In this document: positions 4,184 to 9,867 of the stretch, one piece after another | How positions within the stretch are numbered: the first letter of the stretch is position 1 | How the letters are laid out: every line of letters starts with the position of its first letter | Source: a virus | DNA length: 64,000 bases | IMG/VR virus record: IMGVR_UViG_3300025669_002431 | Reading direction: 5' to 3' (one strand) | The notes under the pieces: generated by a model | Seen by the model: the letters and a program-made list of their open reading frames with translations, nothing else | Told to the model about the DNA's origin: nothing | Databases searched by the model: none | Program-made: the position numbers and the translations under genes

Positions 4184-4489
4184 CTATAATTCATCCACAA
4201 CGCATGCTATTGAATGTTCTTTATATATAAATAATCTTCTCTTCTCTGCATTCATTACTGGTACACAATGATCTTGTTCACCAATTACTATAATATCTCC
4301 AACCTTTACTTGCATTGGAATTCTATCACCATCAGCCATCCTTTTACCAGGACCTACTGCAAGTACTGTTGCAAACTGACGCGGTAATATATTCTCATTC
4401 ATCATAGGCATAATAATATTTCCAACCTTCTCTTCAGGTGGTAATATTTCCAATAAAACATTATCTAAAATCGGGTTATAACTTTCCAT
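4184..4489 (-). CDS. groES: GroES/Hsp10-type co-chaperonin (T4 gp31 analogue)
   Basis: Aligns along its length to bacterial GroES (VLAVGPGKR..., VKVGDIIV...). 101 aa. Confidence 0.88.
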   Translation of the reverse strand: MESYNPILDNVLLEILPPEEKVGNIIMPMMNENILPRQFATVLAVGPGKRMADGDRIPMQVKVGDIIVIGEQDHCVPVMNAEKRRLFIYKEHSIACVVDEL

Positions 4490-4509
4490 AAATCTCTCTT
4501 TCCTTTTGT

Positions 4510-4935
4510 TTAATAATCATCACTCATTTCTATAAATGTTGTGTACCACCAAGCTAATACTTTCTTGGCTTTGTCTTCATCACGAGGATCAAACTGAAGC
4601 TCGTATTCACAATCTAAAAATCGGGGATTATATGTTGGGCTCATTTCTTCATATTCCATATCAACTAATATATTTATATCATGATATGCACAATTTACTC
4701 TTCCCTCTATTATTTTTAAGATAGAAGTATAATTAAATCCTTCTCTGGCAAAATTCTGCATTGATGTGGCTGTACCATCATATAATACAGGAGACCTATC
4801 TCTAGCCTCCAGTAATTTTCCTCTTAAGTGGAGTATCTTCAAATAAAAATTCAAACGTTGTTTTTTAATTATACTTAGCATGTGTACTTTAGACATTAAC
4901 TCCCACTCAATGTCTCTCTTAGATAAATTCACCAT
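4510..4935 (-). CDS. hypothetical protein
   Basis: 141-aa minus-strand ORF. Its start overlaps the upstream stop (ATGA), suggesting translational coupling. Confidence 0.4.
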   Translation of the reverse strand: MVNLSKRDIEWELMSKVHMLSIIKKQRLNFYLKILHLRGKLLEARDRSPVLYDGTATSMQNFAREGFNYTSILKIIEGRVNCAYHDINILVDMEYEEMSPTYNPRFLDCEYELQFDPRDEDKAKKVLAWWYTTFIEMSDDY

Positions 4936-5474
4936 TAATCTGTCAACATTCTCTGAAGTAGGGTAGTAGCTTCACATCTACCTACAGGAGTAGCCAATTC
5001 TTCACCAGTAAAGAACTTGTCGCCTTGATTCACTCTCGTGATAGTATCACTTGACTTTCTAAGAACTTCTATCCATTTTCCATAATCCTCACCATACATA
5101 TCTTCTTTTAAGGATTCTAACCACTGTAAAAACTCTTCATAAGTTTCTGGAAGAACTCCTACAAATTCACCATCATCTGCATAACCATAACAACCAATGC
5201 CAGCCATCAATTTAATTGTTACATCGTCCTCTGCCCATGGTGGAGACATCACAAGACAGAATACAGAATTTTGAGGACCACTCTTTGCAAATATTTCATT
5301 ACCACCCATTGTTATATGTCCAGTACCCATAGTAAGGGATGCTTCTCCAGATTTAATATGGACATAATTTTTATAAATCTCTACATCTGTTTTACCATCA
5401 TCTAATGATATACTACCATTGGTAGACTTATGATTTTCGTCTATTGATAAAAGATCCCAATTAGATAAAGCCAT
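4935..5474 (-). CDS. hypothetical protein
   Basis: 179-aa minus-strand ORF with an RBS. No recognisable motif. Confidence 0.4.
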   Translation of the reverse strand: MALSNWDLLSIDENHKSTNGSISLDDGKTDVEIYKNYVHIKSGEASLTMGTGHITMGGNEIFAKSGPQNSVFCLVMSPPWAEDDVTIKLMAGIGCYGYADDGEFVGVLPETYEEFLQWLESLKEDMYGEDYGKWIEVLRKSSDTITRVNQGDKFFTGEELATPVGRCEATTLLQRMLTD

Positions 5475-5486
5475 TTTAATACCTTT

Positions 5487-7053: not shown

Positions 7054-7073
7054 TATTCTTCCTTAAATAGTAA

Positions 7074-7102
7074 GGAGAGGAAGACATAACACCTCCCTCT
7101 CC
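7074..7102 (-). terminator. GC-rich hairpin downstream of the MVP-like gene
   Basis: Stem GGAGAGG / CCTCTCC lies between the MVP stop (7123) and the REC RBS. The U-tract is weak. Confidence 0.3.
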
Positions 7103-7122
7103 ACCACACTCTCGAACTCTAC

Positions 7123-9867
7123 TTACTGTCTACGAGCCGCTTCCGCCGTTGGAGCTGCCGGTTGATCTGCAGAATTCACCACTGCCTGATTGAGCAGGCT
7201 TGTTACGGTACTCCCCATCGCAGTTCCAGTGAAGATGCGTTGGAGAATTTCCACGAAGCTTTCGCCACCAAGAAGGGTCATTGGACCGATGGCCTTGGAC
7301 GCATTGGCTAAGACGTGATCGTCGCCAAATCTCTGCAAGGCTGCAATGAGATCCGGATGGATCGCTTCGGCTTTCGCTACGACTGTTGCCGCCATCTTCT
7401 CGGCCTCTTCGATCCGAAGTGACTGGTTGGCCTTCTCCATGGCGTATCCCATCTCGTCCGATGCCTTGTCTCTTGCGAGGGCAGAGGCATGATCGATGTC
7501 GATCACGGATTGCTGGAGTCCCACGAGGGCAGCCTGCAACTCTTCTTGCTTTTTCGACTTTTCGCCACGAAGCTCGGCTAACTCAGCCTGCAACTCGACG
7601 TTTTCGGTTTCTCTTGCGAGAACTTGCTTCTGACTTTCTTGTATTGTATCTGCTGTCAAGCGCGAAACGATCTCGGAACGCTTGATGTGTTCCAGTTCCT
7701 GTTCTTTTGCCTGGATGTCGAGAACGGCCTTGACAGAGTCGCGCTGGACTTTTGAGAGCAACTCATCGATGTGCGCATCTTCGATCTGAAGACTCAACAC
7801 CTCAACGTCGTATACCCGCATATTGTTTTCGTCGAATGCTAGTCCTGGTCTCTCGCCGCCTTCTGGTTTGGCTCCGAGGAGGACGTCGCGTACGATGTCA
7901 ATGCCTTCATTGTAGAATTTCTCAATTGAGTGATGCTTGGCTGCGTTCCGAAGAAGGCTGCGAGCATGATCGGATAGAAGCTTGACGTAGTTCTCCACGT
8001 CGAACCACTTCACTCGATCTCCGTCTTCTTCGCCTTCGAAGTGGACGCGGTACGACACCTTGATGTTGATCTTGCATTTGTCGGCGGTCTCGACTTCGAT
8101 AACATCGGAGACCTTATTGTTTTTGATTTGAAGATATACTGTACGGAATAGACGGTCGGTATTCTTCGGCTTCCCAGTGGACAGAGCCAGAACCTGGAGA
8201 ACCTCATCATACTTCAGTCGAATTGTATTCGGGCCGATGACGACGCGTCGATTGCCTTTCTTGTCCGTGACAAGAACCGCGTAACCAACGAACGGGGAAA
8301 TGCTCGGGACGCCATCGTATTTCGTATTCAGTGTCAGGGTGCGCGGCGGAGTGAACGATGTCCTGCGTTGGACCTCATCTCCGGCGATGCCTTCACCAAC
8401 CTGCTCAACATTCCTCATGGAATAGCTTGTGGTCATGTCGGCGGCAACGAGACCCTCAAGTGCTGGCGCTGATCTGTACTTGGCAGCCATTTTCCCGCCA
8501 CGGGAGACGCTTGATGATCTCATATTCCTTGAGGTGTCGGATTCGACGTAGTCAAGGCCGGTGTCTTGGATACTTGCCATTTGCGCATTGAACAGCGCGG
8601 CTTCTTCGTTTCCAGGATACCATAGTTTCACCTGTCGTTGCGGGAGGATTCTCTGCACGATCACTTCATGGATCGGATCCGGAAGGAGCATGCTTGGACC
8701 TTCAAGCGTCGCGATGACACCTGTGTCCTTGTCGAGGACATAACGACCTTCTGATTCGGGGACGGCAACGGCGAAGTGAATATCTTCATTGCCGTATCTG
8801 ATGATTCTGTGCTCTTTGCGCGGGAAGTAGATGGGGGTTGTCCCACCGGTCAAGAACAGCTCTTGGCCTGCTTCATACTTCTCGCCATTTTCCTCGTAGG
8901 ACTCAATGACCTCTACATGAACACCGGAGTTCTTGTTAAGGTCTACTGCTGGCCATTTTCTGGAACCGTCTTTCGTGACGAACTGTTCTGTGGGGTCTGG
9001 GAACACCACTTCTGGTCCCTTCACGTATCTCTTGTTTCCATTTTCGGCAAGGAGTATGCAGTATTCGAGGCGTTCCAGGGTAACTGCGTTACGTACCTGC
9101 TTACCGTTCTCGTCTGGAACGACTTTGACGCCCGTGGGAGGAATGTAGAAGCTGACCTCGGTGCCTTTGATTACAAGGCGCTGGCCAACAGTGAGGCCGA
9201 AAGGAGCTGGTGCGGTGACTTGGGCAACAGTTATCTCTGTCGATTTGTCTCCGGACTTCGGCGCAGGACCAAGATCTCCTGCGAGTTTCCCGATGTCGAT
9301 AGGGGCAGCTGCCTTGACCACAGCTCTGGACCAGTTCTTCGTCGACTCGGTGTCGTTGTATATCTCGACAATAAGGTACTGGTTGGAGCGCAAGCGGTGA
9401 CCACGAATGATTCTCGCATGCTGGCCGGGCCACAATGCTCTTTCATCGGGACCGGGAATGTTCACCTTCTTTCCTATCTGAAGAGGTGGTAGTTGGTTGT
9501 CGGTTCCTTTCACAGGAATCTGACCATCGGCAGACGGGTTGAGCAGCTCCAGATAGAACCCTTCTGGAGTCACGGGGCACGTTCTGACGGCATCTTTCGC
9601 ATTGGTCGGGAACCGGACATATCTCTTCTTCTCAAAGTCCCATACAATCGGGATCTCTGAGCTCGAAAGAGACAGTTGTCGGCCACCCACAATTGTCTTA
9701 ATGCTGCCGTCTTGTCTGTCTTGTACTAAAATGTATTCGTCATTGGTTAGAATTAATTCGCCGCGTTCACCGACATCTCTTGGAGCCATGTGTGTTGATC
9801 CTTCTTCGTCTTTTTGTTCGGCGGAGCGGTAATATCCTGAGTCTTCATCTGTACGAGAACCACCCAT
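7123..9867 (-). CDS. major vault protein (MVP) homolog on a GC-rich island
   Basis: Shoulder-domain stretch RVVIGPNTIRLKYDEVLQVLALSTGKPK...DVIEVETADKCKINIKVSYRVHFE aligns with human MVP RVVFGPELVSL...[24 protein letters not shown]. An N-terminal repeat region and C-terminal coiled-coil cap-helix are present. GC about 57-63% against about 30% in the flanks. The upstream RBS (AGGAAAGGA) is AT-rich. Confidence 0.85.
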   Translation of the reverse strand: MGGSRTDEDSGYYRSAEQKDEEGSTHMAPRDVGERGELILTNDEYILVQDRQDGSIKTIVGGRQLSLSSSEIPIVWDFEKKRYVRFPTNAKDAVRTCPVTPEGFYLELLNPSADGQIPVKGTDNQLPPLQIGKKVNIPGPDERALWPGQHARIIRGHRLRSNQYLIVEIYNDTESTKNWSRAVVKAAAPIDIGKLAGDLGPAPKSGDKSTEITVAQVTAPAPFGLTVGQRLVIKGTEVSFYIPPTGVKVVPDENGKQVRNAVTLERLEYCILLAENGNKRYVKGPEVVFPDPTEQFVTKDGSRKWPAVDLNKNSGVHVEVIESYEENGEKYEAGQELFLTGGTTPIYFPRKEHRIIRYGNEDIHFAVAVPESEGRYVLDKDTGVIATLEGPSMLLPDPIHEVIVQRILPQRQVKLWYPGNEEAALFNAQMASIQDTGLDYVESDTSRNMRSSSVSRGGKMAAKYRSAPALEGLVAADMTTSYSMRNVEQVGEGIAGDEVQRRTSFTPPRTLTLNTKYDGVPSISPFVGYAVLVTDKKGNRRVVIGPNTIRLKYDEVLQVLALSTGKPKNTDRLFRTVYLQIKNNKVSDVIEVETADKCKINIKVSYRVHFEGEEDGDRVKWFDVENYVKLLSDHARSLLRNAAKHHSIEKFYNEGIDIVRDVLLGAKPEGGERPGLAFDENNMRVYDVEVLSLQIEDAHIDELLSKVQRDSVKAVLDIQAKEQELEHIKRSEIVSRLTADTIQESQKQVLARETENVELQAELAELRGEKSKKQEELQAALVGLQQSVIDIDHASALARDKASDEMGYAMEKANQSLRIEEAEKMAATVVAKAEAIHPDLIAALQRFGDDHVLANASKAIGPMTLLGGESFVEILQRIFTGTAMGSTVTSLLNQAVVNSADQPAAPTAEAARRQ

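What the first reader, a model, noticed from the sequence alone, without database searches (positions are those of the whole stretch)
4184..9867. Co-oriented module: MVP - stand-alone receiver domain - ArfB-like GGQ hydrolase - NUDIX - GroES
Immediately downstream of the MVP-like gene lie five tightly packed, partly stop/start-overlapping genes. They are a CheY-like REC-only protein, an ArfB/ICT1-type peptidyl-tRNA hydrolase, an acidic protein, a NUDIX hydrolase and two unknowns. These end in a GroES co-chaperonin and the tRNA cluster. A phosphorylation-responsive switch, a ribosome-rescue factor and a chaperone next to a capsule-forming protein suggests a coordinated host-takeover or translation-rescue cassette rather than random accessory genes.
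Basis: inference. Interest (0 to 1): 0.6.

Follow-up and report, generated by a model that had tools for sequence, protein, structure and literature searches.

The report
Mosaic accessory genes beside phage vault
A stretch of a giant-phage genome that looked like one coordinated cassette is mostly a row of independently inherited helper genes. One pairing does recur in unrelated phages: the vault-shell gene next to a predicted ADP-ribose/cyclic-phosphate-processing enzyme, which may be a clue to what vault shells do.

Summary
All the genes are real, on the minus strand. They are MVP (914 aa), a REC-only protein, a GGQ hydrolase, an acidic ORF, NUDIX, two unknowns, GroES, then tRNA-Phe and two tRNA-like elements.

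Three labels need correcting:
- The REC is a cRec domain (PF20274), a predicted cyclic-phosphate/ADP-ribose phosphoesterase, not a CheY switch.
- The GGQ protein is a short phage RF-1 family member closest to RF1/RF2/PrfH domain 3, not ArfB/ICT1.
- The NUDIX is of the ADP-ribose pyrophosphatase type.

Co-orientation and tight packing are genome-wide here (92/97 ORFs on one strand, median gap 3 nt), so they carry no information.

The cassette is not conserved:
- RF-1: 79 viral loci contain no cRec, MVP or GroES.
- MVP: 75 viral and 80 bacterial loci contain no GroES, unknowns or acidic ORF.
- MVP here is a recent import (GC3 0.57 vs 0.25) with its own 3' hairpin.

One link survives. cRec, NADAR or SLOG genes, all predicted ADP-ribose processors, lie near MVP in 12/75 viral loci (8/43 lineages, six within 1.3 kb). 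The controls give 1/79 and 1/80.

Verdict: an accessory mosaic with an RNA/NAD+ theme, plus a possibly functional, undescribed MVP–ADPr-enzyme association.

The parts
7123..9867 (-). Major vault protein (MVP) homolog, 914 aa. M27 (9789) may be the true start, because homologs begin there.
   Evidence: - Pfam: MVP_shoulder 97 bits, Vault_3 40 bits.
- Sequence match to human/rat MVP, 2.8e-16, over the R9-shoulder-cap helix.
- AF2 model: beta repeats, an alpha/beta shoulder and a 138-residue helix at 698-835.
- Foldseek top hits are full-length vault MVP, E=3e-24.
- More than 6000 homologs, best 46% identity, mostly bacterial.
- GC3 is 0.569 against a window mean of 0.245+-0.071.
7074..7102 (-). 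GC-rich hairpin directly after the MVP stop codon, terminator-like with a weak U tract. It marks the 3' edge of the GC-rich island.
   Evidence: - Terminator scan: 13 pairs.
- Fold: -22.1 kcal/mol, z=-2.64.
- The GC profile places the island at about 7060-9870.
6670..7053 (-). Stand-alone cRec (cyclic-phosphate-processing receiver) domain protein, 127 aa. It carries a unique duplication of the invariant DHDLG motif.
   Evidence: - PF20274 at 9.8e-15 / 55 bits against Response_reg at 30.2 bits.
- All 33 homologs carry PF20274.
- The alignment shows invariant DHDLG, H92 and P113, and the 5-residue duplication occurs only in this protein.
- The identical protein is found on 10 contigs.
6308..6667 (-). 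Short stand-alone GGQ peptidyl-tRNA hydrolase domain protein of the phage RF-1 family, 119 aa, GTG start.
   Evidence: - PF00472 at 4e-22 and phrog_3122 at 8e-33 over the full length.
- NCBIfam: PrfH C-terminal domain 81 bits, RF2 77, RF1 74, ArfB only 37.5 with a cut-off of 100.
- AF2 model has pLDDT 88.
- Foldseek: RF1/RF2/mtRF1 about 1e-6, PrfH 1e-4, ArfB at rank 49.
5956..6330 (-). Acidic 124-aa ORF that overlaps both neighbours. No family could be assigned.
   Evidence: - Called by the collection's gene caller.
- No Pfam, PHROG, NCBIfam or PADLOC hit.
- GC3 of 0.264 is native.
- No homolog in any fetched locus.
5487..5984 (-). NUDIX hydrolase of the ADP-ribose pyrophosphatase type, 165 aa. 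The longest ORF extends to 6065.
   Evidence: - PF00293 at 5.5e-20 and phrog_1198 at 2e-30.
- Best NCBIfam hits are the Nudix domains of NtrR (ADPR-responsive) and of NadM-Nudix.
- An intact Nudix box, GFVDEGEDLHEAISREVLEETGA, is read directly from the sequence.
4935..5474 (-). Unknown protein, 179 aa. It belongs to an unannotated family with motifs MALSNWD...KNW...RGPQ...AGIGCYGY...RFNQGD.
   Evidence: - 411 representative clusters at E<=1e-3.
- No Pfam, PHROG or PDB match, even for a 40-member set or profile.
4510..4935 (-). Unknown protein, 141 aa.
   Evidence: - No family hit.
- No match in GenBank phages.
4184..4489 (-). GroES/Cpn10 co-chaperonin homolog, 101 aa.
   Evidence: - PF00166 at 3e-13 and phrog_3188 at 6e-11.
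- It falls below the NCBIfam GroES cut-offs.
3807..4069 (-). tRNA block downstream of GroES:
- a degenerate tRNA-like element, 3999-4069;
- tRNA-Phe, 3868-3943;
- a 57-nt tRNA-like RNA lacking the anticodon arm, 3807-3863, followed by an encoded CCA and a T run.
   Evidence: - ARAGORN calls only the tRNA-Phe.
- Rfam tRNA model: 41.8, 58.4 and 45.9 bits.
- Folds.
11658..12746 (-). Context only: a DRB0094-type ATP-dependent RNA ligase 1.8 kb upstream of MVP.
   Evidence: - TIGR02306 equivalog at 152.9 bits against a cut-off of 151.15.
- Pfam RNA_ligase plus the PHA02142 OB domain.

Best explanation
**The stretch is not one co-evolved cassette.** It is a piece of the densely packed, one-strand accessory region of a huge tRNA-rich phage, in which individually mobile helper genes sit side by side.

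**Likely roles of the parts** (family membership is shown; the activities are inferred)
- The short GGQ protein hydrolyses peptidyl-tRNA on stalled ribosomes without reading a codon. How it senses stalling is unknown, because it lacks ArfB's tail.
- cRec resolves 2',3'-cyclic phosphate RNA ends or cyclic ADP-ribose phosphate.
- The Nudix enzyme splits ADP-ribose.
- Nearby RNA ligases and phage tRNAs repair or replace cleaved tRNAs.
- GroES recruits host GroEL.
- Together these plausibly keep translation and NAD+ supply running against host ribotoxin and NADase defences.

**The MVP gene.** It was inserted recently as a single-gene cassette with its own hairpin, directly upstream of cRec.

**The only non-random link.** MVP lies next to an ADP-ribose-processing enzyme (cRec here; NADAR or SLOG in other phages). 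This pattern recurs in several viral MVP lineages.
For: **Packing and orientation are genome-wide**
-.

**MVP is a recent, separate arrival**
- MVP GC3 is 0.569 against 0.245+-0.071 for 69 window ORFs. All the other genes of the stretch lie at 0.16-0.27.
- In 11 other phages the GC of MVP tracks its flanks.
- The GC-rich island equals MVP plus its hairpin.

**Independent inheritance**
- None of the other genes lies within +-10 kb of MVP in 11 phage loci.
- 0/79 RF-1 loci have cRec, MVP or GroES, and RF-1 has no conserved neighbour.
- The closest RF-1 relatives sit in replication modules.
- cRec relatives have varied neighbours.
- Bacterial MVPs are solitary.

**Functional theme**
- The cRec and Nudix families are linked, and even fused, in jumbo phages and tied to RNA ligases (PMC7824862, PMC9503650).
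- The window also holds the DRB0094 RNA ligase, a second RNA ligase, a LigD 3'-phosphoesterase and 10 tRNAs.
- cRec loci are tRNA-rich in 4 lineages.

**MVP-ADPr enzyme recurrence**
- cRec lies 21 nt (L157), 1.3 kb (L163), 1.26 kb (L187) and 5.1 kb (L155) from MVP.
- NADAR lies 75 nt (L010), 0.35 kb (the L171 group) and 0.5 kb (L161) from MVP.
- SLOG lies 0.1 kb (L126), 1.2 kb (L140) and 5.5 kb (L125) from MVP.
- All are on the same strand as MVP and verified by Pfam.
- Counts: 12/75 viral MVP loci against 1/79 RF-1 control loci, p=9e-4.
- After re-running with the bacterial loci added: 11/75 against 1/80 bacterial MVP loci, p=0.002.
Against: - No expression data exist, so co-transcription of REC through GroES cannot be excluded. 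The hairpin has only a weak U tract.
- cRec->RF-1 adjacency, and the order cRec, RF-1, Nudix, are retained in one related contig (L014/L108). Some local linkage may therefore be selected.
- The control sets differ in phage type from the MVP-bearing contigs. Part of the enrichment could simply reflect huge-phage accessory islands.
- The broader RNA-repair/NAD theme is not significantly enriched near MVP: 23/75 against 14/79, p=0.09.
- cRec, SLOG and the short RF-1 proteins have no experimentally shown activity.
Confidence: 0.6

Rival explanations
1. MVP, REC, the GGQ hydrolase, NUDIX, the unknowns and GroES form one coordinated host-takeover/translation-rescue operon. The REC protein is its phospho-switch and the vault shell its platform.
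For: - The genes are co-oriented and tightly packed.
- All 10 contigs of this phage population keep the order.
Against: - Packing is genome-wide.
- The order is absent from every other lineage examined.
- MVP is a recent import with its own hairpin.
- The REC is a cRec with no kinase partner in the window.
Confidence: 0.07
2. MVP, cRec and the ADPR-type Nudix form a functional NAD+/ADP-ribose system. The phage vault shell would bind or enclose NAD+/ADPr-derived molecules, or the enzymes themselves. The adjacent enzyme would process them, countering NAD+-depleting or ADPr-signalling defences.
For: - ADPr-processing genes recur on the same strand and close to MVP in independent viral MVP lineages.
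- They are enriched against two control sets.
- Six of the 8 positive lineages have the gene within 1.3 kb inside a +-6 kb window. My binomial estimate from the distances is p about 0.002.
- The MVP here was inserted right next to cRec.
- The human vault shoulder binds NAD+/ADP-ribose and houses PARP4 and the TEP1 NADase (PMC12280208; bioRxiv 10.64898/2026.05.01.722283).
- cRec relatives sit next to a TROVE protein (L020) and an ART (L021), the domain types of TEP1 and PARP4.
Against: - Only 8 of 43 viral MVP lineages show the association, and there is no obligate partner.
- Bacterial MVPs lack it.
- Of the 12 human NAD+-pocket residues, only K506 is identical in this protein, and P565/K573 are replaced by acidic residues (mapping from the alignment).
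- The pattern was noticed post hoc, and the controls are not matched for genome size.
Confidence: 0.25
3. cRec and the GGQ protein form an RNA-repair-coupled ribosome-rescue pair, analogous to PrfH-RtcB or C12orf65-MJ1316. One would heal cyclic-phosphate ends of cleaved tRNA or rRNA while the other releases the stalled peptide.
For: - The adjacency has a 2-nt gap here, and is conserved in the related contig L014 at 54% and 53% identity.
- The GGQ protein's best NCBIfam match is the PrfH catalytic domain.
- There is precedent for release-factor domains coupled to RNA repair (PMC6514570).
- RNA ligases and tRNAs lie nearby.
Against: - 0/79 viral RF-1 loci contain a cRec.
- The cRec relatives in L015, L016/L017 and L021 have no RF-1 next door.
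- The shared adjacency may simply be inherited synteny between two related phages.
Confidence: 0.1

Closest known systems
Phage NAD+/ADP-ribose- and RNA-repair-centred counter-defence gene sets (cRec, Nudix, NADAR, SLOG, 2H, RNA ligases), as described for jumbo phages (PMC7824862, PMC9503650)
   Same: - The window has a cRec protein, an ADPR-type Nudix 0.7 kb away, and RNA ligases, end-healing enzymes and many tRNAs in the same region.
- No histidine kinase is present.
   Different: - Here cRec and Nudix are separate genes, split by a GGQ hydrolase and an acidic ORF.
- A major vault protein gene sits next to cRec. Neither paper mentions MVP: the term has 0 occurrences in both.
Eukaryotic vault particle (MVP cage with PARP4, TEP1 and vault RNA)
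   Same: - Full-length MVP architecture: repeats, SPFH-like shoulder and a long cap helix.
- A thematic link to NAD+/ADP-ribose enzymes in the neighbourhood.
   Different: - Identity to human MVP is about 17%.
- The NAD+-pocket residues are mostly not conserved.
- No PARP4 or TEP1 homolog was found in the window.
- Cage formation is untested.
ArfB/ICT1 ribosome-rescue hydrolases
   Same: A stand-alone GGQ catalytic domain without codon-recognition domains, so a codon-independent peptidyl-tRNA hydrolase is the likely activity.
   Different: - The ArfB equivalog model scores 37.5 bits (cut-off 100) and aligns only residues 8-42.
- There is no basic C-terminal tail: net charge is about +1 over the last 47 residues.
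- The nearest sequences and structures are RF1/RF2/PrfH domain 3.
Phage short RF-1 domain family (phrog_3122), e.g. Bixzunavirus gp204
   Same: - Full-length match at 8e-33, and 48-50% identity to mycobacteriophage proteins.
- Same size and GGQ motif.
   Different: The genomic context differs: in those phages the gene sits between DNA polymerase and a recombinase.
Viral MVPs reported from human-gut phages (bioRxiv 10.1101/2023.11.10.566534)
   Same: A phage-encoded MVP homolog closest to bacterial MVP-like proteins.
   Different: - This one is in a low-GC huge phage and is a clear compositional import.
- At least 192 IMG/VR contigs carry MVP relatives, far more than the two reported.

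Membership tests
ArfB/ICT1 rescue factor | GGQ catalytic motif in an RF-1 domain | tested here: met
   SGPGGQHRN is present, and PF00472 scores 78.6 bits.
ArfB/ICT1 rescue factor | Passes the ArfB equivalog model (NF006718) | tested here: not met
   It scores 37.5 bits against a cut-off of 100, with only residues 8-42 aligned. ArfB and ICT1 are absent from the 45 PDB sequence hits.
ArfB/ICT1 rescue factor | Linker plus a basic C-terminal helix that probes the empty mRNA channel | tested here: not met
   - The C-terminal 47 residues have about 8 basic and 7 acidic residues (counted from the sequence).
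- The model shows a long helix at 73-100 and then a beta-hairpin.
- ArfB (6yss) ranks only 49th, E=5.6e-3.
PrfH (release factor H) | N-terminal codon-recognition-like domain, length about 200 aa, and a score above the equivalog cut-off | tested here: not met
   The protein is 119 aa. TIGR03072 scores 81 bits against a cut-off of 166.65 and covers only model positions 102-186.
PrfH (release factor H) | Operon partner RtcB ligase | tested here: not met
   No RtcB family hit was found among the roughly 90 window ORFs scanned. The ligases present belong to the ATP-dependent RNA_ligase family.
Phage short RF-1 family (phrog_3122) | Full-length match to the family profile | tested here: met
   - It scores 8.2e-33 over residues 5-117 against profile positions 20-128 of 136.
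- 53 homologs align end to end at 43-66% identity.
cRec (PF20274) | Scores above the gathering cut-off and better than the canonical receiver model | tested here: met
   It scores 55.4 bits (cut-off 27) against Response_reg at 30.2 bits (cut-off 30.2). All 33 relatives carry PF20274.
cRec (PF20274) | Conserved acidic active-site residues and family motifs (ED near the N-terminus, DHDLG, HSxN) | tested here: met
   E7, D8, DHDLG and H92-S93-N95 are all present. However, DHDLG is tandemly duplicated only in this protein, and the effect on activity is unknown.
cRec (PF20274) | No histidine-kinase partner; context of RNA repair or NAD+/ADPr genes | tested here: met
   - No HisKA/HATPase hit occurs in the window.
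- Nudix, RNA ligases and tRNAs lie nearby.
cRec (PF20274) | Cyclic-phosphate phosphoesterase activity | not testable with these tools
   The activity is predicted only, and the family is stated to be experimentally uncharacterised (PMC9503650).
CheY-like response regulator | Canonical receiver signature including the conserved beta5 lysine, with a kinase partner | tested here: not met
   - The beta5 region reads FLVPFVW, with no lysine. The family conserves the proline (P113) instead.
- NCBIfam response-regulator models score <=27 bits against cut-offs >=180.
- No kinase was found.
Major vault protein | Shoulder (SPFH-like) domain, vault repeats and a long cap helix in one chain of about 800-900 aa | tested here: met
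   - Pfam hits are above cut-off.
- The protein aligns to human MVP residues 467-816.
- The model has a helix at 698-835.
- Foldseek top 12 hits are vault MVPs, E=3e-24 to 7e-19.
Major vault protein | Assembly into a closed cage | not testable with these tools
   Only a monomer model was made (pLDDT 64). No multimer prediction or electron microscopy is available.
Major vault protein | NAD+/ADP-ribose pocket of the human shoulder (R504, K506, R507, P508, H509, R511, L517, D521, F522, W545, P565, K573) | tested here: inconclusive
   - Through the alignment these map to K566, K568, N569, T570, R572, F574, Q580, N584, K585, V608, E625 and D633.
- One residue is identical, about two are conservative, and the basic K573 and P565 become acidic (D633, E625).
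- The alignment is at roughly 20% identity, so the mapping is uncertain.
NUDIX hydrolase, ADP-ribose pyrophosphatase type | Nudix box GX5EX7REUXEEXGU | tested here: met
   GFVDEGEDLHEAISREVLEETGA matches every position (sequence). PF00293 scores 72 bits.
NUDIX hydrolase, ADP-ribose pyrophosphatase type | Closest to ADPR-specific Nudix subfamilies | tested here: inconclusive
   The best hits are the Nudix domains of NtrR (75.6 bits) and NadM-Nudix (56 bits). All are far below the equivalog cut-offs because those models cover two-domain proteins.
GroES/Cpn10 | Cpn10 fold profile over the full length | tested here: met
   PF00166 scores 49.9 bits (cut-off 21.1) over residues 4-98, and phrog_3188 scores 6e-11. 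It is below the NCBIfam bacterial GroES cut-offs: 43.8 against 99.

The most novel reading that the evidence does not exclude
Phage-encoded vault shells work together with an adjacent ADP-ribose/cyclic-phosphate-processing enzyme (cRec, NADAR or SLOG, here with an ADPR-type Nudix). Together they would handle NAD+/ADP-ribose-derived molecules during infection.

This would be an independent, prokaryote-level counterpart of the NAD+/ADP-ribose link recently found for the eukaryotic vault (MVP shoulder pocket, PARP4, TEP1 NADase). The MVP-cRec junction at 7053-7123 in this window would then be one instance of a new kind of phage counter-defence unit.
Probability: 0.25. Interest if true: 0.8.

Novelty: new variant of a known kind. 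Interest (0 to 1): 0.5.

Why it matters
Most of the stretch is ordinary: known phage accessory families lined up by a compact genome. Showing that prevents an over-read 'cassette' from entering annotation.

Two points deserve attention.
- **The vault link.** What vaults do has been open for about 40 years, and the 2025-2026 eukaryotic work points to NAD+/ADP-ribose. A recurrent, same-strand, sub-kilobase association of phage MVP genes with three unrelated ADP-ribose-processing families would give independent comparative-genomic support. It would also provide a tractable bacterial/phage system in which to test the idea.
- **The GGQ proteins.** The short phage GGQ proteins are routinely called 'ArfB-like', but they lack ArfB's sensing tail. 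How they recognise their ribosome targets is unknown.

Tried and rejected
- **DNA-level relatives.** blastn of 4000-10000 against GenBank phages gave only a spurious 83-nt hit.
- **Single-protein scans of IMG/VR** with LigA and REC found nothing. The 33-member cRec alignment was too divergent for pattern scanning.
- **tblastn against GenBank phages** with REC, unk179 and unk141 gave no match.
- **Repeated search.** A second 'spread' listing of RF-1 phage hits added little.
- **unk179.** It has 411 relatives but no Pfam, PHROG or PDB assignment.
- **PADLOC.** There were no meaningful defence-system hits.
- **Insertion scars.** No convincing direct repeats flank the MVP island.
- **MVP-less variant.** None was found: all 10 contigs that carry the identical REC have the same order.
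- **RNA repair as the general MVP neighbourhood.** Not significant against the control, p=0.09.
- **Other anticodon-less tRNA-like elements.** None was found near other MVPs among 189 sequences.
- **Burroughs & Aravind 2016 (NAR, RNA repair systems).** The paper is not held. My recollection that it links SPFH/Band-7 scaffolds and a tRNA-like RNA to RNA repair is unverified memory.

Full report
**What is there**

All genes of the finding lie on the minus strand and read from 9867 down to 4184. Family scans and the public gene calls for the same contig give this order:
- MVP homolog, 7123-9867, 914 aa.
- REC-only protein, 6670-7053.
- GGQ/RF-1 domain protein, 6308-6667.
- Acidic ORF with no family, 5956-6330.
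- NUDIX, 5487-5984.
- Two unknowns, 4935-5474 and 4510-4935.
- GroES, 4184-4489.

Downstream come a degenerate tRNA-like element (3999-4069), tRNA-Phe (3868-3943) and a tRNA-like RNA without an anticodon arm (3807-3863). The NAD+-dependent DNA ligase follows.

The window is clearly part of a huge phage. It has 10 tRNAs, intein-bearing RecA and class II RNR, two RNA ligases, ClpP, DHFR, dCMP deaminase, homing endonucleases and Volactin. The same element occurs in Logan, ENA and JGI assemblies.

**Is the arrangement more than chance?**

No. 92 of 97 ORF-based genes in the 64 kb are on the minus strand. The median intergenic gap is 3 nt, 70% of junctions are <=25 nt, 38% overlap, and tight runs of 8-9 genes occur elsewhere. 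Co-orientation and stop/start overlap are therefore properties of this genome, not of these genes.

The one place where the packing loosens is around MVP, with gaps of 65 and 69 nt. The 3' gap carries a terminator-like hairpin at 7074-7102: 13 bp by the terminator scan, 11 bp core in the fold.

**Corrected identities**

*The REC protein is a cRec.*
- It scores 55 bits on cREC_REC (PF20274) and only 30.2 bits on Response_reg, exactly at that model's cut-off.
- All 33 database relatives carry PF20274.
- It has the family's invariant DHDLG, HSxN and Pro motifs and lacks the canonical beta5 lysine.
- cRec domains are never found with histidine kinases. They are predicted to be metal-independent phosphoesterases for 2',3'-cyclic phosphate RNA ends or cyclic ADP-ribose phosphate, and are often fused or linked to Nudix and RNA ligases in jumbo phages (PMC7824862, PMC9503650).
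- Uniquely, this copy has the DHDLG motif duplicated in tandem. The identical protein is on 10 contigs, so this is not a sequencing error.

*The GGQ protein is not ArfB/ICT1-like.*
- The ArfB equivalog model gives 37.5 bits against a cut-off of 100, aligning residues 8-42 only.
- The best models are the catalytic domains of PrfH, RF2 and RF1.
- PDB sequence hits are RF1, RF2, PrfH and C12orf65, with no ArfB or ICT1.
- A confident model (pLDDT 88) is closest to RF1/RF2/mtRF1 domain 3, with ArfB ranked 49th.
- The C-terminal part is a long helix plus a beta-hairpin of near-neutral charge, not a basic tail.
- It belongs full-length to the short phage RF-1 family phrog_3122. That family is present in 261 GenBank phages and 259 IMG/VR contigs.

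*The NUDIX is of the ADP-ribose type.* It has a perfect Nudix box and is closest to the ADP-ribose-type Nudix domains of NtrR and NadM-Nudix.

*The MVP is a genuine full-length homolog*. Its family has more than 6000 mostly bacterial members, the best at 46% identity.

**Test of the cassette idea**

That is what the data show.
- **MVP, first set.** In 11 phage loci with MVP homologs, including the 462-kb and 735-kb phages LR756500/1, no other gene of the stretch lies within +-10-12 kb.
- **MVP, larger set.** 75 viral MVP loci (43 lineages) have no GroES, unk179, unk141 or acidic ORF nearby. The RF-1 profile found one hit among them only in the later, more permissive scan.
- **Bacterial MVPs.** 80 bacterial MVP loci show nothing either.
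- **RF-1.** In 79 viral RF-1 loci there is no cRec, MVP or GroES and no conserved neighbour of any kind. The closest relatives sit in replication modules.
- **cRec.** Relatives have varied neighbours.
- **Composition.** The MVP gene has GC3 0.569 against 0.245+-0.071 for the window's ORFs, and the other seven genes lie at 0.16-0.27. In 11 other phages MVP matches its flanks. The GC-rich island coincides with the MVP ORF plus its hairpin. MVP is therefore a recent single-gene import into a pre-existing gene row.

**What does survive**

*(a) cRec->RF-1 in one related contig.*
- In L014/L108 a cRec (54% identity) is followed by an RF-1 homolog (53%).
- A Nudix homolog (34%) comes 6.9 kb further on, inside an NMNAT-Nudix-NAPRTase cluster.
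- Nothing corresponding to unk179, unk141 or GroES follows.
- This is probably inherited synteny, because no independent cRec-RF-1 pair was found.

*(b) MVP next to an ADP-ribose-processing gene in several lineages.* All of these are on the same strand as MVP and were confirmed with Pfam above cut-off.

| Family | Locus | Distance from MVP |
|---|---|---|
| cRec | L157 | 21 nt downstream |
| cRec | L163 | 1.3 kb |
| cRec | L187 | 1.26 kb |
| cRec | L155 | 5.1 kb |
| NADAR | L010 | 75 nt upstream |
| NADAR | L171 group | 0.35 kb |
| NADAR | L161 | 0.5 kb |
| SLOG/YpsA | L126 (= L006) | 0.1 kb |
| SLOG/YpsA | L140 | 1.2 kb |
| SLOG/YpsA | L125 | 5.5 kb |

- cRec, NADAR and SLOG are three of the six superfamilies that PMC9503650 groups as ADP-ribose-derivative processors.
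- Together they occur in 12/75 viral MVP loci (8/43 lineages), against 1/79 RF-1 control loci (p=9e-4).
- After re-running with the bacterial loci added, the counts are 11/75 against 1/80 bacterial MVP loci (p=0.002).
- Within the +-6 kb windows, 6 of the 8 positive lineages have the gene within 1.3 kb. My binomial estimate from the distances is p about 0.002.
- Other recurrent MVP neighbours are homing endonucleases, calcineurin-like phosphoesterases, AAA_33 kinases and ligases. The broader RNA-repair/NAD theme is not significantly enriched (p=0.09).
- No paper in the held library mentions MVP together with NADAR, SLOG or cRec.

**Why the MVP link is interesting, and the caveats**

Two recent studies tie the eukaryotic vault to NAD+ and ADP-ribose.
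- The human MVP shoulder binds NAD+/ADP and houses PARP4 (PMC12280208).
- ADP-ribose is bound in the vault shoulder, and TEP1 is an active TIR-like NADase (bioRxiv 10.64898/2026.05.01.722283).

cRec relatives here also sit beside a TROVE protein with three tRNAs (L020) and beside an ADP-ribosyltransferase (L021). These are the domain types of TEP1 and PARP4.

Against a functional link:
- Only one of the 12 human pocket residues is identical in this MVP, and P565 and K573 are replaced by acidic residues (mapping).
- Most MVP lineages show no such neighbour.
- The pattern was found post hoc.
- The controls are not matched for genome size.

I put the probability of a real functional association at about 0.25.

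**Most likely picture**

This is a compact accessory region in which independent helper genes with a shared theme have accumulated. The theme is keeping translation, RNA integrity and NAD+ supply going under host attack.
- Family membership, gene order, composition and the lack of conserved synteny are shown.
- The biochemical roles of cRec, the short GGQ protein and the phage MVP are inferred.
- Co-transcription is untested.

**Things noticed on the way**
- The anticodon-less tRNA-like RNA with an encoded CCA. It is unique among the 189 sequences scanned.
- An in-frame TGA at codon 7 of the RF-1 homolog in L014.
- The large unannotated unk179 family.
- MVP genes on contigs binned as CPR bacteria.

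Noticed in passing
window 3807-3863 (minus strand): A 57-nt tRNA-like element with acceptor, D and T arms, in which the anticodon arm is replaced by about 2 nt. It scores 45.9 bits on Rfam tRNA, and its MFE fold holds 84% of the ensemble (z=-3.1). It is followed by an encoded CCA and a T run, and sits directly after tRNA-Phe. ARAGORN and the Rfam 'gathering' scan both miss it. A pattern scan of 189 fetched sequences found it only in copies of this same phage.
   Followed up: partly
window 3999-4069 (minus strand): A degenerate tRNA-like sequence scoring 41.8 bits on Rfam, above the gathering score. It has a weak acceptor stem and an odd 6-nt anticodon loop. ARAGORN does not call it and its fold is not better than shuffles. 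It may be a pseudo-tRNA.
   Followed up: partly
window 6880-6910 (codons 51-60 of the cRec gene 6670-7053): There is a tandem 5-residue duplication of the invariant active-site motif ([12 protein letters not shown]). It is absent from all 32 other family members, yet identical on 10 independent contigs.
   Followed up: partly
L014/L108 5622-5999: The RF-1 homolog of the related contig starts ATG AAG AAG CAA AAG GAA TGA AAG..., so it has an in-frame TGA at codon 7 after a good Shine-Dalgarno sequence. The frame continues into a complete GGQ domain. This could be readthrough or autoregulation, recoding, or an assembly error.
   Followed up: partly
window 7060-9870: A sharp GC-rich island (0.50-0.57 against about 0.33) coincides with the MVP ORF plus its 3' hairpin. 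MVP GC3 is 4.6 sd above the window mean, which indicates recent horizontal acquisition. No donor closer than 46% identity was found.
   Followed up: yes
window 4935-5474: The 179-aa unknown belongs to a sizeable family: 411 representative clusters, with many members of about 250 aa carrying a central insertion. No member or profile matches Pfam, PHROGs or the PDB.
   Followed up: partly
L020 66-2914; L021 333-3206: Close cRec relatives lie next to a TROVE/Ro-like protein followed by three tRNAs (L020). In L021 the relative lies between an FtsH-like protease and an ART-PolyVal ADP-ribosyltransferase. TROVE and ART are the domain types of the eukaryotic vault's minor proteins TEP1 and PARP4.
   Followed up: partly
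L001 8663-10866: In the 462-kb phage LR756500, an RNA ligase and an HD + AAA_33 kinase protein (a tRNA-repair-like pair) lie 1-3 kb upstream of MVP, with a DFP flavoprotein gene directly next to MVP.
   Followed up: partly
window 9789-9867: The first 26 codons of the MVP ORF have no counterpart in 33 homologs, are predicted to be disordered, and have lower GC. M27 (ATG at 9789) may be the real start.
   Followed up: no
window 37091-39376, 55405-58635, 41986-43050, 23224-23913: Elsewhere in the window are an intein/LAGLIDADG-interrupted RecA, an intein-bearing class II ribonucleotide reductase, a Volactin (actin-like) protein and a second RNA ligase.
   Followed up: no
L209, L238, L246, L257: MVP homologs occur on contigs binned as CPR bacteria (Saccharibacteria, Yanofskybacteria, Paceibacterota, Parcubacteria). 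One has a Nudix gene directly beside MVP. These contigs may be mis-binned phage contigs.
   Followed up: no
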